64,000 nt of DNA, from the IMG/VR virus record IMGVR_UViG_3300042542_006078; one strand, given 5' to 3'. The notes under the pieces are model-generated. The model was not told the origin of the DNA. It worked only from the letters and a program-made list of their open reading frames with translations, and ran no database searches. The translations under genes were made by a program, and so were the position numbers. Positions within the stretch are counted from its first letter, which is position 1, and each line of letters opens with the position of its first letter. Shown piece by piece: positions 3,909-62,674 of the stretch. Source of the DNA: a virus. Lineage: Duplodnaviria > Caudoviricetes.

Positions 3909-4881
3909 TTTGTCTCCTAAACAATTCTATCCATCTCAAATTAGATTCACCAATAATCTTGAATCCAGAAACATCTCCTTCTTGAAGAGACTTAAGAAGA
4001 TTTATTTTCTCTATTTTTACTTTCCATATATCTTGGTTTTCATCAATCGGAACATTCGTGAGGATTGTTCCTTTAGGAAGAAATGTTTTTATTCCCAAAG
4101 CTATTTGTTTTCTCTTATTTTCAAATAAGTCTCTATTCACTACAGGTTTCGACATGTACAAAGTTACCAATTGCTTAATTTTTGGGCTTTCCTTGAGTCT
4201 TTGCATTAAAGCCTGAATTTGATTCTTCATTCTTTCAGGCATTTCACTCAAAACAATATTTTCAATAACAAAACCATTTGTCTCTTTGAGTAAATCAAAA
4301 CTTGAAACAAATTGATTTCCTATTTCAACACGAGCTTTTTCAGCAATCCATTTATCAGAAGGCAAAGCTTTTATCATAATTGGATGATTATCCCATTCAA
4401 TTTTGCTCAATTCATTTTCTATTTTCAATACCATTTCTTCAAGGACAAATGTTGACTTATCAGTTAATGATTCGATTGCATAATCAACATCTTCAGGTTC
4501 TATTTCTTTTTTTAATATGTTTGATTGATAAAGCCAAAATTCAGATTCAATCAAATTGACAATTGATTCATCGAGAGAATTCTCAAAAATCCAATCTTCA
4601 ATTTTTTGTATATGGTTTAATATTTTTTTTGAATTGCCTTGTTCAAGGCAGATCATAAAGGATTCTATAAAAGGATAATCCGCTTCTTCCAATGCATTTT
4701 TTATTTTTTCACAGTCTATAGTTCTTCTTAGAGCATCACGGCTTTTATCATCGCTTTTCATTACAAGTCCAGATAGCGATGTTGTCAAATTCTCACGATA
4801 AAAATCAAGAGACATTCTAACAGTTGTAAGTTGAATTGATTTTTTTGAGATATAGTCTGATAAATTTTTATACATTTTCAA
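3898..4881 (-). CDS. Hypothetical protein
   Basis: 327-aa ORF overlapping the terminase stop. Confidence 0.7.
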   Translation of the reverse strand: MKMYKNLSDYISKKSIQLTTVRMSLDFYRENLTTSLSGLVMKSDDKSRDALRRTIDCEKIKNALEEADYPFIESFMICLEQGNSKKILNHIQKIEDWIFENSLDESIVNLIESEFWLYQSNILKKEIEPEDVDYAIESLTDKSTFVLEEMVLKIENELSKIEWDNHPIMIKALPSDKWIAEKARVEIGNQFVSSFDLLKETNGFVIENIVLSEMPERMKNQIQALMQRLKESPKIKQLVTLYMSKPVVNRDLFENKRKQIALGIKTFLPKGTILTNVPIDENQDIWKVKIEKINLLKSLQEGDVSGFKIIGESNLRWIELFRRQNEK

Positions 4882-6740
4882 AATCCAAATTCCCTGAGTA
4901 ATTTGTCATACTTTCTTTCAGGTATGTAAGTATAACCACCATAGTATGAATCTTTTTCTGGTGCTAGAATATCAATTTCATCATCGGCTAGCAAATCTTC
5001 TGGAGAACCTTCCAAAAGTTGTTTTTTAATTTCTTCATAAACAGCATTCTTGATTATCTGAACTGATTCTTTTGGTCTTTCTGCTCCCATAGGCAAATCA
5101 CGGAGAAGAGTATCACGAACATAAAGTGCTATGCACATTGCCATGATTGCATCATCGTGTTTGCCTTTTTGAGCCTGAGCCTTTCTTGTTACTTTATTAT
5201 ATTCAAAAGTTTGTAGCTCACAAACAAATCTCATACTGTTGATTCTGACTGTTTGATTAGTGAGCCTATTTTGCAAAGATTCAAGATAAAGTGATCTGTT
5301 AGATTGGCCTATCTTTATGCCCGGTTTCGCATTTGCGTTTTTGTTGTTTTCAAAATATAAGTTATCGTAATAAAGAGTGTGCTGCAAGGCGCTAAGAACA
5401 GCGGTGCCCGGACCCATATTCTCAACAACCACTAATGCGTTATTGTAAAATGTTGCAACCTCATTGATAACTTGGGAAAATTCGTGTGGGATGATTAGAT
5501 TGGAATAAAATTCCACAACCTGTTCAAGAGTCGCTGTGTCAATGATATGAAAAACGCTGCTATCATTGTTTTCAGCCTGACCTTCGGCACAGTCGGCGGA
5601 AAGAATATACTCATGACCTTCAACAGGTTCTTTCCAAATCCACATAGCTCCCTTGTTATCGTCGTTATCAAGTTGAGCAACTCTTCCAGCTTGGTTTGCC
5701 CATTTGGGAAATAACTTACGACTTGGATAATTACTTCTTGTTTGTTCGGTCAAGCCGTTGATGATCTTGGCACTAAAATAAGTTTCTCCTGATCCTTGAA
5801 ACTCACGCAAAACTTCTTGGCGAAAACCCTTTTCTCCAAGCTGCGCTTTTTGTTCAGATACCCAACTCTCATCGTTGTAGTCTGGATGTTCCCAATAATC
5901 GAGATCAATCACATGGAACTTGTTTAAGCGGTCTTTAGCTTCACGATAAGTTTGTTCATACCAGTTTCCCAAACCATTTACCGTTGAAATCAATGTGCAT
6001 GAACCACCTGTTGAAAGAATGGGCCACATGGCTTTCCAGTGCTTTTCCATGTCATCAATGAACGCACATTCGTCAACAATAAGGAATGTTACTGATTTAC
6101 CACGGGCAGCTTCTGGAGAGTAAAACTTCAAAGCAGAACCAGTATCAGTGAATTGCTTTAAGTGGTCGTTCCACTTTCCATCTTTCTTAGGCTTGAGCCA
6201 TTCTGGCAAGTTTTCGCAAGCACGGTCTGCCATCATGCCGATGTCGGTGGCTTCACGATCTGTTTTGGAAATAAGCATGATTTGCTGGTCTAACTGAAAC
6301 ATGCATCTCCACAAACCCCACAAAAGAGTTACGGTAGTCAAACCGCCCTGACGGAATTTTGAAATAATATTGAAACGATTGGTCTCGTAATCGTATATGG
6401 TTTTTCTTTGGTATTTGTAAAGCACAAAAGGAATTAATCCACGCATTGGGTGAAGAATTTTGACATACTTGTGACAAAAGTATGCAAAACTATCAGAGCA
6501 TTTTATCATTTCCTTTTTGCGTCTGATAGGATCATATTTTTCAATATTTTCTAAAGGTTCATCAGGATCTATTTGCAATTCAAATTTGTCGAAGTTGTAA
6601 TACTTTGGATCATACTGCAACCTTCCTATTTCTGGATCATAATTGCCTCCAGAACGGTAATAATCATCCAAGCTTTTGAAATTACTTCTCCAGACGGAAT
6701 CTTTTGCGCTTTTGAAATAACGGGTTTCTTCCATTTGCAT
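4878..6740 (-). CDS. terL: Terminase large subunit, T4 gp17-like
   Basis: KFRQGGLT Walker A-like motif, LIVDECAF Walker B, TVNG coupling motif, SADCAEG and GKHDDAIMA nuclease motifs. Confidence 0.95.
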   Translation of the reverse strand: MQMEETRYFKSAKDSVWRSNFKSLDDYYRSGGNYDPEIGRLQYDPKYYNFDKFELQIDPDEPLENIEKYDPIRRKKEMIKCSDSFAYFCHKYVKILHPMRGLIPFVLYKYQRKTIYDYETNRFNIISKFRQGGLTTVTLLWGLWRCMFQLDQQIMLISKTDREATDIGMMADRACENLPEWLKPKKDGKWNDHLKQFTDTGSALKFYSPEAARGKSVTFLIVDECAFIDDMEKHWKAMWPILSTGGSCTLISTVNGLGNWYEQTYREAKDRLNKFHVIDLDYWEHPDYNDESWVSEQKAQLGEKGFRQEVLREFQGSGETYFSAKIINGLTEQTRSNYPSRKLFPKWANQAGRVAQLDNDDNKGAMWIWKEPVEGHEYILSADCAEGQAENNDSSVFHIIDTATLEQVVEFYSNLIIPHEFSQVINEVATFYNNALVVVENMGPGTAVLSALQHTLYYDNLYFENNKNANAKPGIKIGQSNRSLYLESLQNRLTNQTVRINSMRFVCELQTFEYNKVTRKAQAQKGKHDDAIMAMCIALYVRDTLLRDLPMGAERPKESVQIIKNAVYEEIKKQLLEGSPEDLLADDEIDILAPEKDSYYGGYTYIPERKYDKLLREFGF

Positions 6741-17666: not shown

Positions 17667-20174
17667 ATGCCAATTTGGTCAGACTTTTTCAAAATTTTTA
17701 ACTTTTCGGCAGAACCAGACCCTTTGTCTCGCCGCAAAGACCCTAGGCAATTCATCTCGGCAGGAATTAGCCAACCAGAAGCATTAGGCGCAGATATCAA
17801 CAATGGTCAAGTAAGCGGCGGTATGTCCAGCTACCGTCAGACCAACGACATGATTGACACCACCACACTGTCAAATCGTGCCATGCGCTACAAAGAGTAC
17901 GAAAGACTCAGAAATGTGCCAGAAATTGAAATGTCAATGACAGTATATTCAGACGAAGCATGTATATCTGGAGATACTAAGATATCCACACCTTTTGGTT
18001 TCACAACTATTAAACATCTTGCTGAAACCAAAAAAGATGAGCGTTTTCTTGTCTATTGCTACGACTTTGAAAAGAAAGACTATACCCTAGGTTGGGCATA
18101 CGACCCAAGAATTGTTAAAACGGCACCAACTATAAAAATAACACTAGACAACGGATCAACCTATACCGCAACAGAAGATCATCGTGTCCTTCTCAAAAAT
18201 GGCGAATGGACAGAAACAGGAAAACTAAAGTTTGGCGACGAACTCATGCCATTCTACCGTGTTCCAGCACAAACACATATCACTAAAATAAAACATTCCC
18301 AATACCCAAGATTGTTTTCATTTGCCAAAGGATGGATTCACGAAAGACAATTTATTGATGATTGGAAAACTGGAAAAACAACCCGTGACTACCAAATTGT
18401 TAATCGTGCATGCCGCATGATAGCCGGTGGACTGACAACCAGACAAATATCACAACAAATAGAAATGGATTGGCACACAATAGAAGACAGAATGCACAAA
18501 GAAGGATTTTCTTACAAAGAAGTCAAAAGATTGCACGGACTTGGAGAATCAAGAAGAGTAGTTGGAGTATCACCCGGACCAGAACAAGAAGTATACGACC
18601 TTTCAGTAGAAAAACACAAGTGCTTCGCCACAGATTCAGTCATTCTTCATAACTGCCAAAGAGATGAAAGCGGCAATATCCTCAAAGTGACATCTGAAAA
18701 CATGGATGTCAAAGAAGAAATTGAATTCCTTTTCCTCAACAGAAGGATGCTAAATCTAAATCGTCATGGCTGGACTTGGTTCAAAAACCTTTGCATATTT
18801 GGTGACTTCTTCGTTGAAATTATAATAAATCCCGACAATCCAAAAGAAGGCATCTACAGATGTCTACCATTACCTGTCGAAACAATGTATCGAATCGAAA
18901 CAGTAAAAGGAAGAGTAATCGAATACCAACAATCAAAAGAAGGACCAGATTATCAAGCAATAGTTAGAGGATCACCAGTAGAACTCACCGATACCGAACT
19001 AAACCAAACGACAGCAATCAGATTCGCTCCAAGCCAAGTTGTTCATTTCCGAATTGGAGATGATAGAAAAACTTTTTATCCATACGGCCAAAGCCTTATA
19101 GAACCAGCAAGAGCCCCAGCACATAGCCTCAGATTACTAGAAGATGCTATGGTCGTTTACAGATTGACTCGAGCGCCGGAAAGGCGTGTTTTCTACATAG
19201 ATGTAGGTCAATTACCTCCATTCAAAGCCGAAGCATTTATGGATCGCATGAAGGATCAATTCCGCAAAAGAAAGGTCGCTAATAGTAGTGGTGGTGTTGG
19301 CGCAAATGCCGTCGATGAAAGATGGATGCCACCAGCGCAAGATGAAGATTATTGGTTGCCTGTCAGGCCAAATAGTGGAACAAGAATCGATACTCTTCCC
19401 GGTGCTGAGAATCTTGGTGAAATTGATGATGCTGTATATTTCCGAAACAAACTTCTGACAGCACTTAATTTTCCAAAGAATTATTTTAACAATGAAGACC
19501 CCGGTGCAACTAGGATTACACTTTCATCGCAAGATGTCAAATTTGCAAGAATGATTGAAAGACTACAAAGTCACTTTGAAGACGGACTTCTTGAATTGGC
19601 AGAAAGGCATCTTGCTTTAAGAGGTTTCCCACAAGAAAACTATCGTGACCTTCGTGTCAAAATGACTCCTCCAAGCGATTGGAGAGAACTTTCTCGTGCC
19701 GAAGTTGTTAATGCCCGTTATGGAAATGCTGGTACTCTCAAAAGTAGTCAGCTTATGTCAGACTATGACATCATGACTAAGATACTCAAGTATCACAATG
19801 ATGAAGCAGATGAAATGCTCGCAAGACTCAAGATTCAAAAGCTTGAAGATCTCAAGCTTCAAGTATTGGCCCAAAACCCACAACTTTTGGGTGTCGGTAT
19901 TCCCGGTCAAGAAGAAGGCCAAGATCAGCCAGAATTGGGATCTACACCGGGAGGCCCATCACCGATGCCCGGTCCAGAAGGAGAACAGCCTCCTATGCCT
20001 CCAGAAGGATTGCCATCACCTCCAGAAGGCGGAGAATCCCCTAAACAAGCTGGATCTGAACCAACGATCTTGCCTGAACCAAGCAGCGATGATGTCAAAA
20101 AATTTGATCTTGAACTACAAGATTATGAATCAGAGTCCGATATAGAAGACATCGATTATAGCGTAGGTGAATAA
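17667..20174 (+). CDS. gp20: Portal protein (T4 gp20-like) containing an intein
   Basis: LEDAMVVYRLTRAPERRVFYIDVG, EDYWLP, TRIDTLPG, KFARMIERLQ are gp20 signatures. Confidence 0.95.
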   Translation: MPIWSDFFKIFNFSAEPDPLSRRKDPRQFISAGISQPEALGADINNGQVSGGMSSYRQTNDMIDTTTLSNRAMRYKEYERLRNVPEIEMSMTVYSDEACISGDTKISTPFGFTTIKHLAETKKDERFLVYCYDFEKKDYTLGWAYDPRIVKTAPTIKITLDNGSTYTATEDHRVLLKNGEWTETGKLKFGDELMPFYRVPAQTHITKIKHSQYPRLFSFAKGWIHERQFIDDWKTGKTTRDYQIVNRACRMIAGGLTTRQISQQIEMDWHTIEDRMHKEGFSYKEVKRLHGLGESRRVVGVSPGPEQEVYDLSVEKHKCFATDSVILHNCQRDESGNILKVTSENMDVKEEIEFLFLNRRMLNLNRHGWTWFKNLCIFGDFFVEIIINPDNPKEGIYRCLPLPVETMYRIETVKGRVIEYQQSKEGPDYQAIVRGSPVELTDTELNQTTAIRFAPSQVVHFRIGDDRKTFYPYGQSLIEPARAPAHSLRLLEDAMVVYRLTRAPERRVFYIDVGQLPPFKAEAFMDRMKDQFRKRKVANSSGGVGANAVDERWMPPAQDEDYWLPVRPNSGTRIDTLPGAENLGEIDDAVYFRNKLLTALNFPKNYFNNEDPGATRITLSSQDVKFARMIERLQSHFEDGLLELAERHLALRGFPQENYRDLRVKMTPPSDWRELSRAEVVNARYGNAGTLKSSQLMSDYDIMTKILKYHNDEADEMLARLKIQKLEDLKLQVLAQNPQLLGVGIPGQEEGQDQPELGSTPGGPSPMPGPEGEQPPMPPEGLPSPPEGGESPKQAGSEPTILPEPSSDDVKKFDLELQDYESESDIEDIDYSVGE
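17961..18653 (+). mobile_element. Intein (231 aa) without a LAGLIDADG endonuclease
   Basis: Block A CISGDTKI, block B TATEDHRVL, block F VYDLSV, block G ILHN followed by Cys+1. Confidence 0.92.
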
Positions 20175-25741: not shown

Positions 25742-27178
25742 ATGAACGCTAATTCTAGATTTTTGAACGAGGCTAGGGAGCTAGAAACTCGTTGGAAGCA
25801 GACCGGACTCCTTGAAGGCATTCAAGATCGTTATGTCCGCTCCGCTACCGCAGTTCTGCTCGAAAACCAGAGACTCATGAACGAAGTCTCAACCGATACT
25901 GGAGATGTCGCACAGTTCAAGAGGATTTCAATTCCACTTGTTCGTCGTATCTACCCACAGCTTATCGCAAATAAGATCGTTTCCGTACAGCCTCTCCTTG
26001 GCCCAACCGGCTTGGTCTACTATCTCCGCTTCCGTTATTCAAGCAACAAGGGCGCTACCCGTGGTGCTGACAATAACGGCGGATTCCCCGGCGACGATGC
26101 CAACTCACTCATGCAGAGAGCCGATGGTACTGCCAATCTCGACATCTTCTATTCCAGCCAGTTCATCCAGAATGAAACAACCAGCACTGATGCTGGCGCT
26201 GGTGTTGTAAGCGTGTTCGCTCCTCTTGAACACACGCCAATCCTTGCCGGAACAATAACAGGCACTATCTATGATGGCGCTACTGCTATTCAAACATTCA
26301 CCGTGTCTGCTAGCGGAACTTTCACCTTCTCAGATATCGGCTCTCCTTCACCAAAGGTTACATCTGGTACTCTTCAGACAACCACAGGCGAACTCACCCT
26401 TACTTGGAACGGCGCTCCCGGCTCAAACAACGCAGTTTTGAGCTACGAATACAACATGGAGTGCAACCAAGATCTTCCTGAAATCAATCTCGTAATTGAA
26501 TCAGAAGAAATCGCTGCTAAGACCCGTAAGCTCAAGGCTGTATGGTCTTATGAAGCACAGCAGGATCTTCGCTCACAGCACAATCTTGACGCTGAAGCTG
26601 AACTCACCGCTGTTCTCGCTCAGGAAATCAACCTCGAAATCGACCGTGAAGTTCTCACCGATCTTCGCAACAACGCAGGTACTGTCTCAGCTTGGGACTT
26701 CAACACTGCACTCGGCGAAACGATCAAGGAAAAGTACGAAAGCCTTTATGTTAAGGTTGTCGAAATTTCCAATGTCATCCACAGAAAGACCCTTCGTGGT
26801 GGCGCAAACTTCATCGTGACCTCACCTGAAGTTGCTTCAATCTTTGAAACAGCAACAGCCGGTTTCGCTCCTGCACCTTCTGAAACCTTCACAAGCTCAC
26901 TCGGCATCCAGTATGTCGGCACCGTGAACAATCGCTGGAGACTCTACAAAGATCCTCTCTTCCCAAGCAATCAGTTGTTGATGGGTTACAAGGGCGACTC
27001 TTACATGGACAGCGGATACTTCTACTGCCCATATGTTCCATTGACCCAGACACCAGTTGTTCTCGATCCAGAGAGCTTCTGCCCACGCAAGGGAATTCTC
27101 ACTCGCTATGGAAAAAAGCTGCTTCGTGAGGGGGCAAAATTTTACGCACGCCTCAGTATTGCTAATTTCGTCATCTGA
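25742..27178 (+). CDS. gp23: Major capsid protein, T4 gp23-like
   Basis: IPLVRRIYP, VQPLLGPTG, KTRKLKAVWS.EAQQDL, EINLEIDRE, FYCPYVPL, TRYG. Confidence 0.97.
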   Translation: MNANSRFLNEARELETRWKQTGLLEGIQDRYVRSATAVLLENQRLMNEVSTDTGDVAQFKRISIPLVRRIYPQLIANKIVSVQPLLGPTGLVYYLRFRYSSNKGATRGADNNGGFPGDDANSLMQRADGTANLDIFYSSQFIQNETTSTDAGAGVVSVFAPLEHTPILAGTITGTIYDGATAIQTFTVSASGTFTFSDIGSPSPKVTSGTLQTTTGELTLTWNGAPGSNNAVLSYEYNMECNQDLPEINLVIESEEIAAKTRKLKAVWSYEAQQDLRSQHNLDAEAELTAVLAQEINLEIDREVLTDLRNNAGTVSAWDFNTALGETIKEKYESLYVKVVEISNVIHRKTLRGGANFIVTSPEVASIFETATAGFAPAPSETFTSSLGIQYVGTVNNRWRLYKDPLFPSNQLLMGYKGDSYMDSGYFYCPYVPLTQTPVVLDPESFCPRKGILTRYGKKLLREGAKFYARLSIANFVI

Positions 27179-27285: not shown

Positions 27286-27313
27286 TTGATTTCTAAAATT
27301 TGCTTACTATAAT
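27286..27313 (+). promoter_or_regulatory. Sigma70-type promoter
   Basis: TTGATT-N16-TATAAT upstream of the ATG at 27348. Confidence 0.6.
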
Positions 27314-27347
27314 ACCTTTGCGGGGCAATAAGAAAAAGAGGTGTTAC

Positions 27348-54037: not shown

Positions 54038-55123
54038 ATGCATTATGTTCATCGTATGACTTTGATGATTCACACAGCTTCTTGCGATAATTTTTTAGAA
54101 TCGCAGGGAATACCAAGTTATTATGAGGCTTTGCTGAGAAATTTAAGCAGACAATCTTTGCGTGAATTTGAACTTGTTTATGTTGATAGTTTTTACGAAG
54201 AAAACAGAGAGAAATTTGATAGATTGCTATCAGGATTAAATTTCATAGCAAAGCATGTTCCTATTCATAAGGACCACAGATATTGGTTTGATAAAGGCTA
54301 TTGTTATATTGCTGCTGCAAAAAATACAGGTATTTTGCATGCCGATGGCGAATTGCTTGTTACATGTGATGATGGAGAGTTTTTCCCAGACGATTTTTTA
54401 CAGCGTTACTGGAGTCATTATAAATCAGGTCATTATATGCTGGGCATGCATAATAGACTCAGGTCTATCAAGACAGAAAACGGAATACCTGTTTTCCCTA
54501 TACAAGGTGAAATTTATATAAACGACAATAGATTTAATCAACTTTACATTAACGCCAGCCCATCTTCAAAAAGCAATAATATTTTTCAACATAATAATGG
54601 GAGTTGGGCCTATGCTGGCACTAGTTTCTCTTTGCTAGATGCTCTTGAACTCAATGGTTTCAACGAAAGGATGGATGGATGTAAAAGTCTTGATGATTGT
54701 GATTTTGGTAACCGTTTACAAATTCTAGGAAGAAAATTTGTACAAGACAAAAAAGGCATATTTTATATATTGGATCATCCTAGCTATGCAGACATGACTC
54801 CAGCAAACTGGGAAGTTGGATTGGACGGTCAATCAAATCAACTTCCTCCTCCCACAAGAAGGAAAAAGATTGATAATTTAATTGCAGTTGAAAATTATGG
54901 CACATTGCGCTGTTCAGTTGAGCTTAAGGAAATAAAAGCGAATGTAAAACCATTAACTGACAATCATTTGAATATAATTCAAAGAGAAACCATACACTAT
55001 AGAAAATTTGACCCATTGGCACCAGAAAATGCTGAAAAGTTCTCAATATGGAAAGGTGTACCAACATTTGATTTGGTCAAACAAAGACAAGAACTGAGAA
55101 CATCAAAAGAATGGAGATGGTAA
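54038..55123 (+). CDS. GT-A fold (GT2/GT7-like) glycosyltransferase
   Basis: VYVD, AAKNTGI.HA.GE.L..CDDG, NGFNE.MDG...DD.DF..R. Confidence 0.75.
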   Translation: MHYVHRMTLMIHTASCDNFLESQGIPSYYEALLRNLSRQSLREFELVYVDSFYEENREKFDRLLSGLNFIAKHVPIHKDHRYWFDKGYCYIAAAKNTGILHADGELLVTCDDGEFFPDDFLQRYWSHYKSGHYMLGMHNRLRSIKTENGIPVFPIQGEIYINDNRFNQLYINASPSSKSNNIFQHNNGSWAYAGTSFSLLDALELNGFNERMDGCKSLDDCDFGNRLQILGRKFVQDKKGIFYILDHPSYADMTPANWEVGLDGQSNQLPPPTRRKKIDNLIAVENYGTLRCSVELKEIKANVKPLTDNHLNIIQRETIHYRKFDPLAPENAEKFSIWKGVPTFDLVKQRQELRTSKEWRW

Positions 55124-55746
55124 TGGATATTACAAGTTTTTTAGATATACATCTTGGCACCATTGATGGATGGTGCGAAAAAGACAAGGCCAAGAAGCTC
55201 TATGAAATAATTTGTGAAATAAAGCCTAGTTTGTGCGTTGAGATTGGTGTTTTTGGAGGCTCATCTTTGCTTCCTCAGGCTCTTGCCATCAAGCATAATA
55301 CAAAAGGTGTTATAGTTGGCATTGATCCTTGGAGCAATTCTTGTGCTATAGAGGCTATGGAGAATAAAGCCAATAAAAATTGGTGGGGAAATGTTGATCT
55401 TGAATCAGTATACAAGAAATTTTTACAAAAAATTAAATTATATGAAGTTGAAGATTTTGTTCAAGTATATCGTAATAAATCCTCGGAAGTTGTAAATCGT
55501 TTTGATGACAATAGCATTGATGTTCTACACATTGATGGTAATCATTGCGAAAAAATTTCTTATGCGGATGCAATTAATTATTATCCAAAAGTCAAAATAG
55601 GTGGTTATATTTTCTTTGACGACATCAACTGGAGCGAGAACATGAAAGATATTTCTACTGAAAAGGGATTAAAATATCTCTTGCAATTCTCTGAAGAGAT
55701 GGGCGTTTTTGGCAAAGACTGCTTGTTGATGAAAAAAGTAAAGTGA
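55111..55746 (+). CDS. Class I SAM-dependent methyltransferase (Methyltransf_24-like)
   Basis: VEIGVFGGSS, GIDPW, IDVLHIDGNH, K.GGYI.FDD. Confidence 0.88.
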   Translation: MEMVMDITSFLDIHLGTIDGWCEKDKAKKLYEIICEIKPSLCVEIGVFGGSSLLPQALAIKHNTKGVIVGIDPWSNSCAIEAMENKANKNWWGNVDLESVYKKFLQKIKLYEVEDFVQVYRNKSSEVVNRFDDNSIDVLHIDGNHCEKISYADAINYYPKVKIGGYIFFDDINWSENMKDISTEKGLKYLLQFSEEMGVFGKDCLLMKKVK

Positions 55747-55788
55747 AGATAATATTCCTCCTAAGCCATAAATAGCAATAGGGGGCAT

Positions 55789-56217
55789 ATGAATCAAAAT
55801 TTTACTACAGATCAGGTTCAAGAACAGCTTGTGCAATTACAAGTTTTTTTAGAAGAAGCCAAGCAAAAGTGGGATTCAGAAAATCCACAACCAAAATCAT
55901 GGTTCGATAAGAACAAGGCATATATTGTTAAAACAACTATTTTTTTGATAGGAATAACTGATAATCTTATCAATTTAGTTGAAACATTTTTGCTTAAAGG
56001 GCCGGATAAAAAGATTGCTGTTTTAGCAATTGCCACGCAACTTTTTGACTATGTTGCTTCAAAAGCATTTCCAATATGGATTTCTCCATTTGTTCCAGTT
56101 ATCAAGCAAATAGTAATATCAATAATAATCAGCAATATGATTGAATTCATAGTTTCTAAATACAAAGAAGGTGCTTGGAAATGGGAGAATAAAACAGATG
56201 CCTCTAGAACAGTGTGA
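55789..56217 (+). CDS. Small membrane-associated protein, possibly holin-like
   Basis: LVE....G.DKK..V pattern and hydrophobic C-terminal half; CATAAATA upstream. Confidence 0.4.
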   Translation: MNQNFTTDQVQEQLVQLQVFLEEAKQKWDSENPQPKSWFDKNKAYIVKTTIFLIGITDNLINLVETFLLKGPDKKIAVLAIATQLFDYVASKAFPIWISPFVPVIKQIVISIIISNMIEFIVSKYKEGAWKWENKTDASRTV

Positions 56218-57145
56218 TATTATCAATTTACTTCCTTTTGTTCGTGAAGACATTGCGACAGTGCAAGATGTCCAACAAAGAGCAGGATGGGAAATTACTG
56301 CTTTCAATCTTTTGGATACTTGGTCTTTGACACAGGGAGAAGGCGTTGTTGTCGCAGTCCTCGATACAGGTTGTGATTTGAATCACGATGACCTCAAGGG
56401 AAATCTTTTAGAAGGCAGAAATTTTGTAAAAAAAGGCATGCCTCCAATAGATGATCAAGGCCATGGAAGCCATGTGGCGGGAACTATTTGCGCTTTGAAC
56501 AATGATTTTGGAGTAGTTGGAGTTGCGCCAAAAGCGAAAGTCATGCCTGTCAAAGTTTTGGACAGCAAAGGAGCAGGTAATCTGTCAGTTGTGGCAGAAG
56601 GGATCAAATGGTCTGCTGATCAAGGTGTTGATTTTATCGTAATGTCTCTTGGTTCTCCGACACCTACACCTGTGATTTATGATGCAATTAAATATGCAGA
56701 ATCAAAAGGTGTTGTAACTTGGTGTGCAGCAGGCAACGCTGGCAAGACAAGACAGATATTTTATCCAGCCGCTTATCCAGAAGTTATTGGAATAGGCGCT
56801 ATTGATGAGAATTTGCATCGTGCCAACTTTAGTTGCACAGGCCCAGATCTTGATTTTTTGGCACCGGGTGTTGGAATTTTAAGTACAGTGCCTGATAATT
56901 GGTATGCAATTTTATCTGGCACATCTATGTCAACTCCTTTCGCAGCAGGAGTTGGTTGCTTGCTTCTTTCTCATAAAAGAAAAATACAACTTGGAATCAA
57001 TCTTAAAACAGCAAAAGATTATATTGATGTTTTGAGAAATTATACTATTCCAACAACCGATCCTAAATTCGCAAATCAAAATTTTTTAGAGGGATTTGGA
57101 ATTATTGATCCACGCAAAGTTACAGAATGGATGCAGCGCAACTAA
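56198..57145 (+). CDS. Subtilisin-like S8 serine peptidase
   Basis: VLDTG, HGSHVAG, AAGN, SGTSMSTP; no signal peptide or long prodomain. Confidence 0.95.
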   Translation: MPLEQCDIINLLPFVREDIATVQDVQQRAGWEITAFNLLDTWSLTQGEGVVVAVLDTGCDLNHDDLKGNLLEGRNFVKKGMPPIDDQGHGSHVAGTICALNNDFGVVGVAPKAKVMPVKVLDSKGAGNLSVVAEGIKWSADQGVDFIVMSLGSPTPTPVIYDAIKYAESKGVVTWCAAGNAGKTRQIFYPAAYPEVIGIGAIDENLHRANFSCTGPDLDFLAPGVGILSTVPDNWYAILSGTSMSTPFAAGVGCLLLSHKRKIQLGINLKTAKDYIDVLRNYTIPTTDPKFANQNFLEGFGIIDPRKVTEWMQRN

Positions 57146-57729
57146 TCTTTTGAAGGCAATACTGCTGGAGGGAGATCATAAAATATAAAATCTTGTTCGC
57201 TGCTCAAGCTGCCATATCCTTTTTGGCCTTCTTTTCCACCTTTTGCCTGACTTTGTACTTTTCCATCTTTTTCTCCTGATCCTTTCTTTTCTCCAATAAC
57301 TCCTTTTCCTTGAGCTATTTGCTGCATTGCTTTTGCAAGTTTTTGGTGCATTTGTTCCGAGTATGGTAATTTATAAACTCTTGGTTCTTTTCTTTTCTTA
57401 ATCTTGAAAGGAAACAAGTGGTTTTCATTTTGTTCTTCTTCTTCGATGCTTGATGCCCAAATCAATATGCTGCCAGAATCTGCTGTTTTTAATTTTGATG
57501 GTTCTTTAACCAAAGACCAATGAACCGTGAATTTTTCTGGCATAACTTGTTCTGTCGGCCATCCTGACAAACTACTTACAGAGTGCCAAAGACCTAAACT
57601 AAAGTAAAGTACTACCGAAACCACAATTGCTTTGAGCCACCAATATCCTTTGCCGAGAATGATATACCATAAACACATAGCAGAAATAATCACAAATGTG
57701 ATTGAAATCCCGATGATTGTGTTGTCCAT
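57142..57729 (-). CDS. Membrane protein (two N-terminal TM helices)
   Basis: Hydrophobic N-terminus then GWPT ... IWA ... PRVYKLPY. Confidence 0.7.
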   Translation of the reverse strand: MDNTIIGISITFVIISAMCLWYIILGKGYWWLKAIVVSVVLYFSLGLWHSVSSLSGWPTEQVMPEKFTVHWSLVKEPSKLKTADSGSILIWASSIEEEEQNENHLFPFKIKKRKEPRVYKLPYSEQMHQKLAKAMQQIAQGKGVIGEKKGSGEKDGKVQSQAKGGKEGQKGYGSLSSEQDFIFYDLPPAVLPSKD

Positions 57730-57737
57730 TTTTTTCC

Positions 57738-58373
57738 TTACGGTGCTGATGGCACCTCAAATGTGTTCTGCTTTGTCCTTCCAATCATCTTTTTCTGAAT
57801 TGTGTTTGATGATTCTATTTCGCCATTTTTGTTTAATTTGAAACGAAGAGCAGTTTTTTCATCACCTTGTGAATCCAAAACCACTTGACTTATCATCATT
57901 GTTTTAAGTTTTGGATTTACTTTGTCGATCTGAATAGTGACAGGGCATGGTCTTTTATCATTCATTTTATAAGCATGAACATTAACGCAATACTCACCAA
58001 CATGGAATCCACGGAATGTGATAATCTCTCGATTGTAGGGATATTTCATAGGCCCTTGAGGGGTTTCCACCATGTCGTTTCGGAATCCCAAATCGTCACG
58101 GTCAAGGTGCATAAGTCCAACCTCTCTGCTCCTGAAAAAAACAAGATTGCCAAGAGGGTCTTCGACATATATGTCTATATCGTTGTCCATATCATCTGGC
58201 CATGTCATAGTGACGATTAACTCTGCCTTAACTTCGACAGATGATTTGCTTTGATCTTTATTTTGGTTTATGAGAGCAAACGACAATACGAAAAGAGCCG
58301 TAAATGCAAGAAGCATATTAAAAAGCAAATCCAAAAAAGATGTATTGCAACTATAGTGCTTTCTATTGATCAT
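57738..58373 (-). CDS. ExbD/MotB-like single-pass protein with soluble Ig-like (DUF2135-like) domain
   Basis: TM segment SFLDLLFNMLLAF with an intramembrane Asp; MTWP...NDIDIYVEDP; ATGA overlap with the upstream gene. Confidence 0.65.
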   Translation of the reverse strand: MINRKHYSCNTSFLDLLFNMLLAFTALFVLSFALINQNKDQSKSSVEVKAELIVTMTWPDDMDNDIDIYVEDPLGNLVFFRSREVGLMHLDRDDLGFRNDMVETPQGPMKYPYNREIITFRGFHVGEYCVNVHAYKMNDKRPCPVTIQIDKVNPKLKTMMISQVVLDSQGDEKTALRFKLNKNGEIESSNTIQKKMIGRTKQNTFEVPSAP

Positions 58374-58879
58374 TTTGCTTCCTGTTTTTGCGCTATTTTG
58401 TTCAGATGCAAACCAAGAATCAATGCTTGCATTTTTAGACATTGTCCGCAGATCAAACCAACTAGTGTCGTATACAAAGCAGTTGCCATGCTCTTTCCTA
58501 GTTCTGACAAAAGTCCCTGAATGGTTTGTTGGTTTGATATATCGAGGTTTTCAAAACCTGCCAACATCATGCAGAATCCCACTATTGTTCCCAACATCCC
58601 AAGATTGAGGCAAAGCTCACTTGTGAACCAGATTGTTTCTTCTCTTCTTGCAAAAGATTCGATCTTTTCTTTGGTAATATTGTTTTCATTTTCAGTCAAG
58701 AAGATATCTCTGCCACATTTAATGCTCATAATGTAAAATATAACTATGGTAGCAATGCTTAAGTAGCTTGCATCTTTTTCCCAGAGTACTTTTACGAATC
58801 CAAGGTAAAAGGAAAAGACTGTTGCCACAATGAATAATGTGAACAAAAGCCACCATTTAAGAAATGATTCAAATTTCAT
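58370..58879 (-). CDS. MotA/TolQ/ExbB proton-channel family protein
   Basis: LGMLGTIVGF...L ... MATALYTTLVGL. Confidence 0.88.
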   Translation of the reverse strand: MKFESFLKWWLLFTLFIVATVFSFYLGFVKVLWEKDASYLSIATIVIFYIMSIKCGRDIFLTENENNITKEKIESFARREETIWFTSELCLNLGMLGTIVGFCMMLAGFENLDISNQQTIQGLLSELGKSMATALYTTLVGLICGQCLKMQALILGLHLNKIAQKQEAK

Positions 58880-59384
58880 TTTGAGCCTTTTTGTTTTTGA
58901 GTTTATCTACTTTCTGCTTCAATTCATTCGCCAATTCGTAATTTTCTTCAGAAATTGCCAATTGCATTTTGGATTGCAATATGACAATTTCATCTTCTGT
59001 GTTTAGATAAAATCCTGTCGTATCATGTTTTTTTGGTCTTTTGCCAATATGTTTGTATCCAACCTGACATTTTGTAATCATTGCCAGAATCTTGTCTCTG
59101 AATGATTCGTAGCACATGTCGCATCCAAGTCTTGATTTTTTGACAATGTCTTCAAAGCAACAATTGCATTGAGAACACTTTTTTATATCTTTTTGATATT
59201 TATCTGTTATATTTTCAATGATGCCCATAAGTTCTTCAAGGGCTTCCACGCTATTTTTTTTGTATTGTAAATAAGCGCACTTTTCGCAAACCATTTTTTG
59301 CACAAATTCGCCGCCATCAGAAACTAGTATCTGATAAGACTTCGAGTTTGGACAAGGCGTTCCATTAAGAGGACAGTTTTCCAT
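58869..59384 (-). CDS. mcsA: McsA-like protein (Zn fingers plus UvrB/C motif)
   Basis: CEKC, CSQC...F......RLGCDMCYESF, HIGKRP, L..AI.EE.YE.A..LK. Confidence 0.85.
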   Translation of the reverse strand: MENCPLNGTPCPNSKSYQILVSDGGEFVQKMVCEKCAYLQYKKNSVEALEELMGIIENITDKYQKDIKKCSQCNCCFEDIVKKSRLGCDMCYESFRDKILAMITKCQVGYKHIGKRPKKHDTTGFYLNTEDEIVILQSKMQLAISEENYELANELKQKVDKLKNKKAQNEI

Positions 59385-59386
59385 AT

Positions 59387-59917
59387 TCAATCCTTGTTTT
59401 CAGATGCGACGATCTTCTTCAAATCATCCAACTTTTTGTAAATTATTTTCTTTTCATCATCTGTGATTTCATCCTTGAAATCCATTAACATTTTACGGGC
59501 AAAGGAATCATATTTCTTGGAAAATCCAATTCTTATTTCCAATAATTCTTTGCTGTATTTAACAACATCTTCTTTTTTGGCGATGCTCGGATTATCAGAT
59601 TCATAATCCTTTTCCGAAAATTTATTGATTTCTTGTTTCCATGCTGATTGCAGCTTTTCTGACTCTTGGCCTATCTGTTGCGAAAAAACAAGTATAAATG
59701 TATGTTTTTCAATTGGCTTCAAAATTGAAAAACTTTTAACATCATTTGTTTTCTTGTCTATTATCTCAATTTTATTCCAATACTGTTGCGAAAAAGTAGA
59801 ATCGTTAAAATTTTTGTAAACTGAAATGGCATTTTTATAATCATTATGAGTCGCCTTTGCCTTTGCTGGTTCATCGTAGCCAACAAAAGCAAGCAAAATA
59901 ATCAAAATTATTTTCAT
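59387..59917 (-). CDS. Exported or membrane-anchored hypothetical protein
   Basis: MKIILIILLAFVG after an AAGGGA RBS. Confidence 0.6.
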   Translation of the reverse strand: MKIILIILLAFVGYDEPAKAKATHNDYKNAISVYKNFNDSTFSQQYWNKIEIIDKKTNDVKSFSILKPIEKHTFILVFSQQIGQESEKLQSAWKQEINKFSEKDYESDNPSIAKKEDVVKYSKELLEIRIGFSKKYDSFARKMLMDFKDEITDDEKKIIYKKLDDLKKIVASENKD

Positions 59918-59924
59918 TTTTCCC

Positions 59925-60755
59925 TTAAATAAATACCGCATCGCCTTTTATTCGCAAGCTGAAACCGTCAACCTCAAGAGATTGCGAATTTGCTGCTACA
60001 GTTCTCTTTATCCATACTGGTATTACATCCAAATTGCGAAAAGTACCCAAAGAATATGAGGATGTAGAAAATACTACGCTTGTTGGTGGTGTGGTTTCAA
60101 CATCAATTAAGGTTGCTTCTTTATTGATTGGAGAGCCATTGACAGATTTGACTATTGAAACATTTGGAGCAGAACCAGAATAAGTAAGAGAATTGGATTG
60201 TAATATGAGCAGTTCTTGATACCTCGCCCCAGAATCTCCTAAAAAATTTACTTCAAAAGAAAGAGTGTTGCTTCCTGCATCATAACTTGCTGATACTGTA
60301 ACTCCTGTCAGATAATCCAACAAATTAATTGCGGTTTGGAAATTACTTGCAAAAGTGTTGACATCAACATCATAAGAAAAATTAAAGTTATGTGTTGTTG
60401 TATCGGTATAAGTTAAGGTAATTGTACCTCCAGTAACACTACTGAAGTTGCTGATGTTCACATATTGTCTGTCATTTAGAATCTCAAATCCAATCTCCAT
60501 TTCGGCACCACTAGTTGGATCGTATAGGATGTATATTTCAGAATTATACAAAATTTCAGATGCGCTATCGTTGCTTATATAAAGGCACCTGTAGTCTATC
60601 ATTCCTAATGATGCTTCTGAATTTGTGACATTATCAAACAAAGTGTTGTTATTTACTGAATAAATTGATGGCGCACCACCCAAAGATAAGTTGGGGTTGT
60701 TGTTTGAAGAACCCCCAGAGTATAAGTAAGAAATATCGCCGGGTACAATTGGCAT
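59925..60755 (-). CDS. Probable virion structural protein
   Basis: S/T/N-rich; YSGG...SLGG, LFDNV..EA..G..DYRC.YI.N, VWIKR.V pattern of phage tail-region proteins. Confidence 0.6.
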   Translation of the reverse strand: MPIVPGDISYLYSGGSSNNNPNLSLGGAPSIYSVNNNTLFDNVTNSEASLGMIDYRCLYISNDSASEILYNSEIYILYDPTSGAEMEIGFEILNDRQYVNISNFSSVTGGTITLTYTDTTTHNFNFSYDVDVNTFASNFQTAINLLDYLTGVTVSASYDAGSNTLSFEVNFLGDSGARYQELLILQSNSLTYSGSAPNVSIVKSVNGSPINKEATLIDVETTPPTSVVFSTSSYSLGTFRNLDVIPVWIKRTVAANSQSLEVDGFSLRIKGDAVFI

Positions 60756-60878
60756 CTTAACCTCAAATTTTGAACTATAATATCTATAAGTAAGTATATT
60801 TTTTTACCATTTTGGTTGATTTGAATTTTCTAGGCACTTATAATAGATGGCAAGATTGTTTCGGAAACCTGTCAAAAG

Positions 60879-61733
60879 ATGACGGACTCGGAAATAACGA
60901 AGCAAAACATGCAAGAACACAAAGATCATTACAGGCTAGATTCATCTAATCCTAGAAGGATTAATGGAAAGCGTGTAATTTGGTCTAACTTCCAAACCAA
61001 TCTTAAAATATTACAAATATACAACAAAGGTCTGGAATACTCCGTACTTTCCGATAAGTATGAAACTTGCAATCCATTGGTTTGGTGTAAAGATTTTCTT
61101 CACGATGTTGTACATTCGTCTTTAGCAAAAAGATCTTTTGAAATATATCGTCTTCGATATGATCCTTCCATAAATCCCAAGCCTTGTATTAAACAAACAA
61201 GAATATTGGTTGCAAATAGTCGTGATATCAGGATGGTAAAAAAGATACCATCATGTCTTGATTTCATTAATCAAATTGAAGACAAGCTCAATATTTCTCA
61301 CACTATTGTTCGTCCATGTATCAATCCACCAGTTGGTTATACAAAAGATAATGTTTTCATTTTCCAAGGACACAAAAGGTGGCTTTTTGCTCCTGCAATG
61401 TTGTCTTTATACACACTTTTGATAAGAGTTGGATTTTCGCATTTTCTTGGAAAAGATTATAAATCCACAATATTAGGACTTAAAGAGGGATTGATTAAAC
61501 AGTATCAATCCAAAGATGCAAGATGGATTAAAGAAATAGAACCAGCTTTTGAAAAAATCATTAGAATTGGCGACCGTAAAATTTTTTATCGTGATATCAA
61601 ACTCAATTATCCCGCTCACATGTCAACAGACATTATGCATAATAGAATGGGCATTGTTGCTTTCGCAAATGATATTAGGGCCAAGCATGCAGGACTATCT
61701 GTGGTTATGCCTTATTGGCACCTAATCAACTAA
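60879..61733 (+). CDS. Hypothetical protein upstream of the amide ligase
   Basis: 284-aa ORF; start uncertain. Confidence 0.6.
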   Translation: MTDSEITKQNMQEHKDHYRLDSSNPRRINGKRVIWSNFQTNLKILQIYNKGLEYSVLSDKYETCNPLVWCKDFLHDVVHSSLAKRSFEIYRLRYDPSINPKPCIKQTRILVANSRDIRMVKKIPSCLDFINQIEDKLNISHTIVRPCINPPVGYTKDNVFIFQGHKRWLFAPAMLSLYTLLIRVGFSHFLGKDYKSTILGLKEGLIKQYQSKDARWIKEIEPAFEKIIRIGDRKIFYRDIKLNYPAHMSTDIMHNRMGIVAFANDIRAKHAGLSVVMPYWHLIN

Positions 61734-61756
61734 CCTTTCTTTTGGAGGAGCGGGAC

Positions 61757-62674
61757 ATGGAATTTACTTTTGGTTGTGATCCAGAATTCATGCTGAATCG
61801 ATGGGAAGAACTGCAAAGTGCTATTCCATTGTTGCCCAAAAAAGAAAAGGCTGTTTTGAAAAACGGAAATGGTTTTTATTTTGACAATGTGTTGGCAGAA
61901 ATTGCGGTTAAACCTTCAAAAACAAAAAAAGAATTATTCACAAATATACAAAATGCTTTGCTTCATCTTGCAAAGTTAATTAAGCCTTGCAGATTCACGA
62001 TTCGCTCTTCTGCTAGGTATCCAAGCAAGCAGCTTGATGATAAGGAAGCAAAAATTGCTGGCTGCAATCCAGAATGGAATGTTTATACCTTAAAATGTAT
62101 TTTGCCTCCAGAGGAGGTCATTTCTAAGACGACATTCAGAACTGCTGGTGGTCATATCCATGTGGGGGCCAAAGGACTAGATGATCCAATTAAATCATTC
62201 GATGTGATTAGAATGATGGATTTGTTTATTGGAATACCATCTTTGTTTATGGATACCGATCCAACATCCAAAGACAGAAGAAAGATTTATGGGCATGCTG
62301 GCAGTCATCGCATGACTGATTATGGATTTGAATATAGAAGTCTTGGCAATTTCTGGTTTTCTTCACCAGAACATGTTAGTTTAATTTATGACTTAGTTGC
62401 ATTTGTTCTTGATTTTGTTGAAAACGAAAACCACAAAAAGTTCTGGTCTGTTAATGAAAAAATGCTACAAGGCAATGATCCTAGCCGTGCTTATACTTGT
62501 ATTGGCTATGATGCAAAACTTCTTTGCAAGTCAATTAATTCTTGTGACAAGAATCAAGCTGAAAAATTCATGCTTTTTATTCACAATTATTTGACAGATG
62601 ATCTTGCGAATAGAATTGAAAAACTTTCAGAAAAACCTTTACCGAATCCCTATGAATCTTGGGAACTCATGTGA
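61757..62674 (+). CDS. phiEco32-like COOH-NH2 ligase type 2
   Basis: FGCDPEF, DN..AE, AGCNP, RTAGGHIHVG, RRKIYG.AG..R, G.EYR.L.N.W. Confidence 0.85.
   Translation: MEFTFGCDPEFMLNRWEELQSAIPLLPKKEKAVLKNGNGFYFDNVLAEIAVKPSKTKKELFTNIQNALLHLAKLIKPCRFTIRSSARYPSKQLDDKEAKIAGCNPEWNVYTLKCILPPEEVISKTTFRTAGGHIHVGAKGLDDPIKSFDVIRMMDLFIGIPSLFMDTDPTSKDRRKIYGHAGSHRMTDYGFEYRSLGNFWFSSPEHVSLIYDLVAFVLDFVENENHKKFWSVNEKMLQGNDPSRAYTCIGYDAKLLCKSINSCDKNQAEKFMLFIHNYLTDDLANRIEKLSEKPLPNPYESWELM

What the first reader, a model, noticed from the sequence alone, without database searches (positions are those of the whole stretch)
57142..58879. Phage-encoded ExbB/ExbD-like ion-motor module with a third membrane subunit
Three coupled genes encode a MotA/TolQ/ExbB channel, a single-pass partner with the essential intramembrane Asp (FLDLLF) but an Ig-like domain in place of the ExbD or OmpA-type periplasmic domain, and a 2-TM protein. 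This is the architecture of PMF-driven motors (Ton, Tol, Mot, and ZorAB of Zorya). In a lytic phage it could energise export or uptake, jam host Ton/Tol to exclude superinfecting phage, or sense membrane breach. No ZorC/D/E-like genes are adjacent.
Basis: partly seen in the sequence, partly recalled or inferred. Interest (0 to 1): 0.7.

Follow-up and report, generated by a model that had tools for sequence, protein, structure and literature searches.

The report
Phage MotA/ExbB-like three-gene membrane motor
A phage carries three coupled membrane genes that look like a stripped-down proton-driven motor of the Ton/Tol/Mot kind; the same unstudied cassette occurs in many phages, including cultured Rhizobium phages, and in hundreds of bacterial species, so what it drives can be tested.

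Summary
Three translationally coupled minus-strand genes sit in a real phage (terminase, portal and capsid genes lie in the window).

- **A (169 aa)** passes Pfam's MotA_ExbB threshold. Its profile aligns with TolQ TM2-TM3.
- **B (211 aa; true start 58373, ATGA overlap with A)** is single-pass with an Asp that is invariant in 146 of 146 relatives. Its periplasmic part is a beta-sandwich, closest to Ca-binding TerD, not an ExbD or OmpA domain.
- **C (195 aa)** is a TM hairpin plus a small conserved domain that is predicted to be periplasmic.

New here: the trio is a self-contained, widespread cassette.

- The B family has about 2,100 clusters at 50% identity.
- A-B-C is kept in all 80 viral loci fetched and about 80 bacterial loci (at least 556 stretches matched in species-representative genomes).
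- It is present, annotated only as hypothetical, in 29 Rhizobium and Sinorhizobium phage records, including 16-3 and RHph_N34.
- Bacterial copies often add a lipoprotein gene. In two distant lineages they sit beside PedA1A2BC-type (lanthanide/PQQ-dehydrogenase) ABC transporter genes.

Almost all soluble mass is predicted to be periplasmic, so the output should be Ton/Tol-like. It is not Zorya: A has no tail and there are no ZorC/D genes. The phage role is unknown. I found no paper that describes it.

The parts
58370..58879 (-). Gene A: minimal MotA/TolQ/ExbB-family channel subunit, 169 aa. Four predicted TM helices (about 11-29, 37-55, 89-107, 139-157), N-in and C-in. The cytoplasmic loop is only about 33 aa and the tail 12 aa.
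   Evidence: Pfam PF01618 scores 32 bits, above the gathering score of 22.9. hhalign against TolQ gives 82%, E 1e-5. PDB profile hits are MotA, PomA and TolQ. Family alignment A2 has invariant D36, G94, G97, G101, F102, A134, T138, G141 and Q151.
57738..58373 (-). Gene B: single-pass partner, 211 aa. Short cytoplasmic N-terminus, TM helix with invariant Asp15 (FLDLLFN), then a periplasmic beta-sandwich with an invariant acidic and basic cluster (D65, D67, R92, D93, D94, E116, R121, N131).
   Evidence: ATGA start/stop overlap with A. Alignment A1. Invariance counted in 146 sequences. Model pLDDT 74.7. TerD is the top fold match at Z 7.8 and 7.1, and Foldseek probabilities for TerD entries are 0.92-0.98. 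Family size is 2,104 clusters.
57142..57729 (-). Gene C: two-TM hairpin (3-25, 30-54), then a small alpha/beta domain (66-148), a disordered G/K/E-rich linker and a conserved C-terminal F..LPP..LP.K strand. The soluble part is predicted to be periplasmic.
   Evidence: Alignment A3. Model pLDDT 79.4. Positive-inside count: the inter-TM loop averages 2.1 K+R and 0 D+E, and the N-terminus 0 K+R. No family or fold match. It follows B in 156 of 162 loci.
58869..59390 (-). Upstream co-directional gene overlapping A's start by 11 nt: a McsA-like zinc-finger and UVR-motif protein. Lineage-specific, not part of the general cassette.
   Evidence: Pfam UVR 24.6 bits. NCBIfam McsA 54 bits, below the cut-off of 210. 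It is found only in the 6 closest loci.
59387..59941 (-). Upstream co-directional gene, 184 aa, with an N-terminal signal or TM segment, probably exported. Lineage-specific.
   Evidence: only the 6 closest loci.
59925..60755 (-). First gene of the co-directional string, 276 aa, matching phrog_13135 of unknown function. Lineage-specific.
56171..57145 (+). Convergent neighbour: S8 subtilase whose end overlaps C's end by 4 nt. Kept only in the closest relatives.
   Evidence: Pfam Peptidase_S8 at 2e-52. phrog_3677 protease. Distribution.

Best explanation
A, B and C form one inner-membrane complex of the MotA/ExbB/TolQ '5:2 motor' kind.

Proposed mechanism:
- A forms the ion-conducting ring.
- B is the central axle-type subunit. 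Its invariant intramembrane Asp takes up and releases the coupling ion.
- C is a membrane-anchored accessory or transducer.

A has almost no cytoplasmic mass, and both B's beta-sandwich and C's domain are predicted to face the periplasm. Ion flow is therefore converted into movement or conformational work in the periplasm, as in Ton and Tol. It does not produce cytoplasmic torque as in Mot, and it does not signal to the cytoplasm as in Zorya.

The phage makes the complex in the infected cell's inner membrane, as the last three genes of a six-gene co-directional string. It would power or retune an envelope process that helps the phage. The phage version is the minimal form (A-B-C only) of a cassette that is common in Pseudomonadota.

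Shown here: gene structure, homology of A, invariance of the Asp, the folds, the conservation of the trio and its distribution.
Inferred: complex formation, stoichiometry, ion coupling, periplasmic orientation and any phage benefit.
For: - A belongs to MotA/TolQ/ExbB.
- A and B overlap by ATGA, and B and C are 8 nt apart behind a ribosome-binding site.
- D15 of B is invariant in 146 of 146 sequences and lies at the cytoplasmic end of the single TM helix.
- There is a weak ZorB1 hit over B's TM region.
- A-B-C keep the same order in 148-156 of 162 loci from viruses and bacteria, while the flanking genes differ.
- The charge distribution places the soluble domains of B and C in the periplasm, and leaves A with only a loop of about 35 aa and short tails in the cytoplasm.
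- B's domain is a beta-sandwich with a strictly conserved acidic cluster, closest in fold to Ca-binding TerD.
- The same trio is found in cultured phages: RHph_N34 gp145-147 and 16-3 p038, p040 and p042.
Against: - B has no significant similarity to TolR, and its profile finds no solved MotB, ExbD or TolR chain.
- C has no similarity to TolA or TonB.
- Stoichiometry and assembly could not be modelled, because no multimer prediction was available.
- A's similarity to the family covers only the last two TM helices.
- No output partner is encoded next to the phage copy.
- No experiment or paper bears on the function.
Confidence: 0.6

Rival explanations
1. Auxiliary host-function module. The bacterial cassette works with the PedA1A2BC-type ABC system (lanthanide or Ca supply to periplasmic PQQ dehydrogenases), and B's acidic beta-sandwich binds the metal. 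Phages carry a copy to keep or boost that uptake or handling step during infection.
For: The four Ped-type genes lie next to the trio in Pelagibacterales-like loci, on the divergent strand, and in Sphaerotilaceae, upstream on the same strand. They are TIGR03861 PedC (370 and 354 bits), TIGR03864, TIGR03866 (479 bits) and TIGR03863. A PqqB-like gene sits directly upstream of A in other Sphaerotilaceae. The PedA1A2BC gene set matches the published one and is needed for growth at low La3+ (PMC6839425). The Pelagibacterales-like clade is sister to the phage clade. B carries an invariant D/E cluster and has a TerD-like Ca-binding fold.
Against: No Ped-type gene or lipoprotein D is found in the window or in any of the 80 viral loci. 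The linkage is seen in about 21-22 of 80 bacterial loci, in two lineages only. Metal binding is untested. The Rhizobium phage contexts are DNA-metabolism and early regions.
Confidence: 0.15
2. Superinfection exclusion or defence device. The complex senses or blocks incoming phage at the envelope (Zorya-like sensing), or it poisons host Ton/Tol motors that rival phages and colicins use for entry.
For: The best NCBIfam and PADLOC hits of A and B are to the TM regions of ZorA and ZorB. The cassette is patchy in bacteria, in 30 of 301 genomes of the order that holds the Bauldia locus L115, and it moves between phages and bacteria. A temperate phage, 16-3, carries it near its immunity region.
Against: The scores are far below the family cut-offs (34 against 500 bits). 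A lacks the long ZorA tail, and no ZorC/D or other effector gene is adjacent. Bacterial copies sit in ordinary metabolic neighbourhoods, not in defence islands.
Confidence: 0.1
3. A gated ion leak rather than a motor. The complex dissipates or tunes membrane potential, for example for lysis timing or host shut-off, with no mechanical output.
For: The A subunit is minimal, with no cytoplasmic interface. No obvious output partner is encoded in phages.
Against: The periplasmic domains of B and C are strongly conserved down to single residues across about 2,000 clusters, which argues for specific periplasmic interactions. No lysis genes are linked to the cassette.
Confidence: 0.1

Closest known systems
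TolQ-TolR-TolA (Tol-Pal) and ExbB-ExbD-TonB (Ton) motors
   Same: The gene order is channel, then Asp-bearing single-pass protein, then a third membrane-anchored periplasmic protein. A is homologous to TolQ and ExbB over the two pore-lining helices. The Asp lies at the cytoplasmic end of B's TM helix. The output is predicted to be periplasmic.
   Different: A has four TM helices and almost no cytoplasmic domain. B's periplasmic domain is a TerD-like beta-sandwich, not the ExbD/TolR fold. C has two TM helices, no SHLS-type His motif, no Pro-rich or long helical spacer and no TonB or TolA C-terminal domain.
MotAB / PomAB flagellar stators
   Same: A has a four-TM topology. The best solved-structure sequence hits are MotA (8gqy) and PomA. 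The partner carries an Asp.
   Different: A has no torque-generating cytoplasmic domain. B has no plug and no OmpA-like peptidoglycan-binding domain. No flagellar context is present.
ZorAB of Zorya anti-phage systems
   Same: The TM cores of A and B give their best defence-library hits to ZorA and ZorB.
   Different: The hits are far below threshold. A lacks the long ZorA C-terminal tail, there are no ZorC/D/E genes, and a third subunit C is present.
TerD-family Ca2+-binding beta-sandwich proteins, and DUF2135
   Same: B's periplasmic domain gives its best fold matches to TerD proteins: 2qz7 at Z 7.8 over 126 aa and 2kxt at Z 7.1. UniRef labels a Polynucleobacter homologue as DUF2135.
   Different: B gives no TerD Pfam hit. 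DUF2135 scores only 11-13 bits against a gathering score of 22. Z values below 8 are within the range of unrelated sandwiches. TerD proteins are soluble and cytoplasmic, whereas B's domain is tethered to the membrane and predicted to be periplasmic.

Membership tests
MotA/TolQ/ExbB proton channel family (PF01618), tested on A | Sequence match above Pfam's gathering score | tested here: met
   32 bits against 22.9, residues 72-147. hhalign against TolQ gives 82%, E 1e-5.
MotA/TolQ/ExbB proton channel family (PF01618), tested on A | Conserved pore-lining helices with G-T and T-T/G motifs facing the partner's Asp | tested here: met
   LGMxGTVIGF and MSTALYTTLxGL are conserved, and G94, G97, G101, T138 and G141 are invariant. 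They align to the MotA and TolQ motifs.
MotA/TolQ/ExbB proton channel family (PF01618), tested on A | Pentamer around a dimer of the partner (5:2 assembly) | not testable with these tools
   No multimer prediction was available.
ExbD/TolR, tested on B | Single N-terminal TM helix with a conserved Asp near the cytoplasmic end, encoded next to the channel gene | tested here: met
   D15 is invariant in 146 of 146 sequences. The TM helix spans 9-42 in the model. B's start overlaps A's stop by ATGA.
ExbD/TolR, tested on B | ExbD/TolR periplasmic domain, or sequence homology to the family | tested here: not met
   No Pfam hit. hhalign against E. coli TolR gives 1.7% probability. The profile finds no solved ExbD or TolR chain. 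The modelled fold is a beta-sandwich.
MotB / ZorB (OmpA-like anchor), tested on B | C-terminal OmpA-like peptidoglycan-binding domain | tested here: not met
   No OmpA hit in Pfam or NCBIfam. The only match is a weak ZorB1 hit over the TM region, E 5e-4.
Zorya (ZorA, ZorB and ZorC/D or ZorE) | ZorA long C-terminal tail and adjacent ZorC/D/E effector genes | tested here: not met
   A is 169 aa with a 12-aa tail. NCBIfam ZorA_4 scores 34 bits against a cut-off of 500. The neighbours give no PADLOC hits, and no partner gene is conserved across loci.
TonB / TolA force transducers, tested on C | Single TM helix with a His motif, an extended spacer and a TonB/TolA C-terminal domain | tested here: not met
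   C has two TM helices. hhalign against TolA gives 0.4%. No Pfam or PDB hit. Fold searches are uninformative for the soluble part.
TerD family, tested on B's periplasmic domain | TerD beta-sandwich fold with Ca2+-binding acidic motifs | tested here: inconclusive
   TerD is the top fold match at Z 7.8 and 7.1. Foldseek probabilities are 0.92-0.98 but E-values are above 0.02. There is no Pfam TerD hit. An invariant acidic cluster is present.
DUF2135 (PF09906), tested on B | Pfam match above the gathering score | tested here: not met
   Bacterial homologues score 11-13.5 bits against 22, and the window protein gives no hit. The UniRef label is recorded.

The most novel reading that the evidence does not exclude
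The A-B-C trio is a previously unrecognised class of proton-driven periplasmic motor. Its axle subunit carries a metal-binding (Ca2+ or lanthanide) beta-sandwich. In bacteria it works with the PedA1A2BC lanthanide and PQQ-dehydrogenase uptake system and a dedicated lipoprotein. Phages of Alphaproteobacteria and marine jumbo phages captured it long ago as a minimal three-gene version to control the infected cell's envelope or metal supply.
Probability: 0.12. Interest if true: 0.85.

Novelty: new variant of a known kind. Interest (0 to 1): 0.66.

Why it matters
Ion-driven 5:2 motors (Mot, Ton, Tol, Gld, Zorya) are few in number, and each one opened a field of study. This trio would add a very small and very widespread member, with about 2,100 sequence clusters. 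Its axle subunit carries a new periplasmic domain, and it has a new third subunit.

It is shared by bacteria, including streamlined marine Alphaproteobacteria, and by many phages. I found no paper that describes it. Phage-encoded motors of this family appear to be undescribed.

The cassette is present in cultured, genetically tractable Rhizobium and Sinorhizobium phages (16-3, RHph_N34, P10VF). Its role in infection can therefore be tested directly. The link to PedA1A2BC genes also gives a concrete hypothesis for the bacterial copies.

Tried and rejected
**Searches that found nothing useful**
- Nucleotide similarity of 55000-62000 to GenBank phages: no match.
- tblastn of A against phages: only one marginal hit. 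B was the useful probe.
- No whole genome is held for the window.
- No tRNA genes in the window.
- Literature searches found no description of the cassette or of phage-encoded MotA/ExbB homologues.

**Readings rejected**
- Zorya membership.
- Prophage origin of the bacterial copies. Their neighbours are housekeeping or metabolic genes such as SufBC, aspartate dehydrogenase, DegP-like protease and cytochrome b561.
- B as an ExbD/TolR homologue.
- C as TolA or TonB.
- A fused, longer form of C: none found, which is weak evidence.

**Uninformative or limited results**
- The C fold search was dominated by the helical hairpin. Foldseek gave only insignificant OB-like hits for its soluble part.
- Promoter and terminator scans gave no more sites than shuffled sequence.
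- Among plasmids, only Azospirillum chromids carry B.
- The first motif regex for B was too narrow. It was replaced by BLAST-anchored trimming.
Full report
**Setting.** The window is phage DNA. It holds a large terminase (4878-6740), a portal (17667-20174) and a major head protein (25742-27178) with strong PHROG matches. An identical 43-kb IMG/VR contig exists, as does a relative on a 225-kb viral contig whose B protein is 82% identical. The phage is therefore probably a jumbo phage. No similar cultured phage exists at the nucleotide level.

**The genes.** Six genes run head to tail on the minus strand from 60755 to 57142. The last three are the finding.
- A (58370-58879) overlaps the end of the preceding McsA-like gene by 11 nt.
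- B's annotated ORF starts at 58442. An ATG at 58373 overlaps A's stop as ATGA and follows an AGGAAG motif. All relatives begin there, so B is 211 aa.
- C starts 8 nt after B's stop.
- Promoter and terminator scans were no better than shuffled sequence.

**A.**
- It passes Pfam's MotA_ExbB threshold (32 against 22.9 bits).
- A 27-sequence family profile hits solved MotA, PomA and TolQ weakly.
- The same profile aligns to E. coli TolQ residues 135-209 at 82% probability, E 1e-5.
- The conserved LGMxGTVIGF and MSTALYTTLxGL helices correspond to the pore-lining helices of the family.
- A has four hydrophobic segments. Its charge pattern fits an N-in, C-in topology with a cytoplasmic loop of about 35 aa and a 12-aa tail. 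It is therefore a minimal family member without a cytoplasmic working surface.

**B.**
- The single TM helix carries FLDLLFN.
- D15 is invariant in 146 of 146 non-identical relatives. So are W58, D65, D67, L90, R92, D93, D94, E116, R121, G126 and N131.
- The AlphaFold model (pLDDT 74.7) shows a long helix and then a beta-sandwich.
- Foldseek finds nothing at E<=0.001 in the PDB, but its high-probability hits are four TerD-family entries.
- The exhaustive aligner also puts TerD first, at Z 7.8 over 126 residues and Z 7.1. Next come Ca-binding jelly-roll domains of subtilases and many Ig-like pilin domains near Z 5.
- In the viral structure library, the best match is a 713-aa protein of Cellulophaga phage phi4:1 (E 3.5e-6). 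A 'tellurium resistant like' phage protein also appears.
- B shows no homology to TolR or to any solved chain. It has only a weak ZorB1 hit over the TM part.
- UniRef calls a Polynucleobacter homologue 'DUF2135', but that Pfam model scores 11-13 bits against a threshold of 22.

**C.**
- The model (pLDDT 79.4) has a TM hairpin, a small alpha/beta domain, a disordered G/K/E-rich linker and a conserved C-terminal strand carrying F..LPP..LP.K.
- Across the family, the loop between the helices is positive (2.1 K+R, 0 D+E) and the N-terminus has no K or R. By the positive-inside rule the soluble part should be periplasmic. This is an inference.
- Nothing known matches C.

**Distribution.**
- B has more than 800 relatives among 90% clusters.
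- It has 2,104 clusters at 50% identity with E<=0.001, and 1,564 with E<=1e-10. The 150 best listed are mostly about 200 aa.
- A degenerate-pattern scan found 183 viral stretches and at least 556 stretches in species-representative bacterial genomes. These are mostly Alpha-, Beta- and Gammaproteobacteria, plus Desulfobacterales.
- In the 162 loci fetched, A lies directly upstream of B in 148 and C directly downstream in 156. No other gene is generally conserved.
- 30 of 301 sampled genomes of the order that holds the Bauldia locus L115 carry B.
- Bacterial copies sit among ordinary chromosomal genes, not in prophages.
- On a FastTree of B, most viral sequences form one large, deep clade. A Pelagibacterales-like group is its sister and the main bacterial clade is separate. 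The virus/bacterium label needs about 6 changes. The support values are local ones only, and several long branches are unreliable.

**Cultured phages.**
- tblastn of B finds 29 GenBank phage records. All are Rhizobium or Sinorhizobium phages, and all annotate the genes as hypothetical.
- Profile comparisons confirm the trio in RHph_N34 and in temperate phage 16-3.
  - RHph_N34: gp145 matches A at 97.4% and gp147 matches C at 81%. gp146 is B, by the tblastn match.
  - 16-3: p038 matches A at 95.3% and p042 matches C at 95.4%. p040 is B, by the tblastn match.

**Leads from bacterial context.**
- In 42 of 80 bacterial loci, a lipoprotein gene of about 240 aa with no family match follows C.
- The trio adjoins four genes in the Pelagibacterales-like loci (divergent strand) and in many Sphaerotilaceae (same strand, upstream). 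They match NCBIfam TIGR03861 (PedC permease), TIGR03864 (ATPase), TIGR03866 (beta-propeller) and TIGR03863 (binding protein).
- This is the gene set of PedA1A2BC, which Pseudomonas putida needs to grow on 2-phenylethanol at low lanthanum (PMC6839425).
- A PqqB-like gene sits directly upstream of A in other Sphaerotilaceae.
- None of these partners occurs in the window or in the viral loci.

**Reading.** The best-supported picture is a minimal ion-driven motor of the MotA/ExbB/TolQ kind whose working parts face the periplasm.
- It works like Ton or Tol in layout, but only A is a demonstrable family member.
- B and C are new partners.
- It is not Zorya.
- What the phage gains is unknown. Candidate roles are supporting a host uptake or envelope function, exclusion of rivals, or control of membrane potential. 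All are rated low.
- The literature held here does not describe the cassette.

Noticed in passing
window 58869-59390 (-): A phage gene resembles the protein-arginine kinase activator McsA. It has zinc-finger cysteines and a UVR motif (Pfam UVR 24.6 bits; NCBIfam McsA 54 bits, below cut-off). It overlaps the start of gene A by 11 nt and is kept only in the closest relatives.
   Followed up: partly
window 56171-57145 (+): An S8 subtilase (Pfam 2e-52, phrog_3677) lies convergent with gene C and overlaps it by 4 nt. Periplasmic-type serine proteases also lie near the cassette in phage 16-3 (p036) and in Polynucleobacter (a DegP-like gene in L121). This may be coincidence.
   Followed up: no
L121:6122-6841, L139:6114-6893 and 40 further bacterial loci: An uncharacterised lipoprotein gene of about 240 aa (lipobox LLSC in L121) follows gene C in 42 of 80 bacterial loci. 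It appears to occur in two to three tandem copies in L106 and two in L113. It matches no Pfam or NCBIfam family and is absent from all phage loci.
   Followed up: partly
L085-L091 and L118-L158 (bacterial loci): PedA1A2BC-type ABC transporter genes (TIGR03861, 03863, 03864, 03866) lie next to the cassette in two distant lineages, in different orientations. A PqqB-like MBL gene lies directly upstream of A in other Sphaerotilaceae.
   Followed up: partly
G001:C2:369280-370501 (Bauldia sp.): Two B-like matches sit side by side in G001, and three other genomes (G004, G009, G286) hold a second, unlinked match. Whether the G001 pair reflects a B duplication or a whole-cassette duplication was not checked.
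   Followed up: no
window 27300-28877 (+): A 525-aa ORF right after the major head protein gene combines HNH/homing-endonuclease, Mom-like and endonuclease VII-like PHROG matches. It is probably a mobile endonuclease inserted in the structural module.
   Followed up: no
L163 (phage 16-3) 4726-5016 and 5546-5731: In phage 16-3, small ORFs p039 (96 aa) and p041 (61 aa) lie between the A-like, B-like and C-like genes. p041 may encode the TM hairpin of a split or mis-annotated C.
   Followed up: no
viral structure library hit S0A5K4 (Cellulophaga phage phi4:1, 713 aa); phrog_1735: B's beta-sandwich domain recurs inside much larger uncharacterised phage proteins (Foldseek E 3.5e-6; phrog_1735 at 8.7e-5). 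The domain is therefore not restricted to the motor cassette.
   Followed up: no
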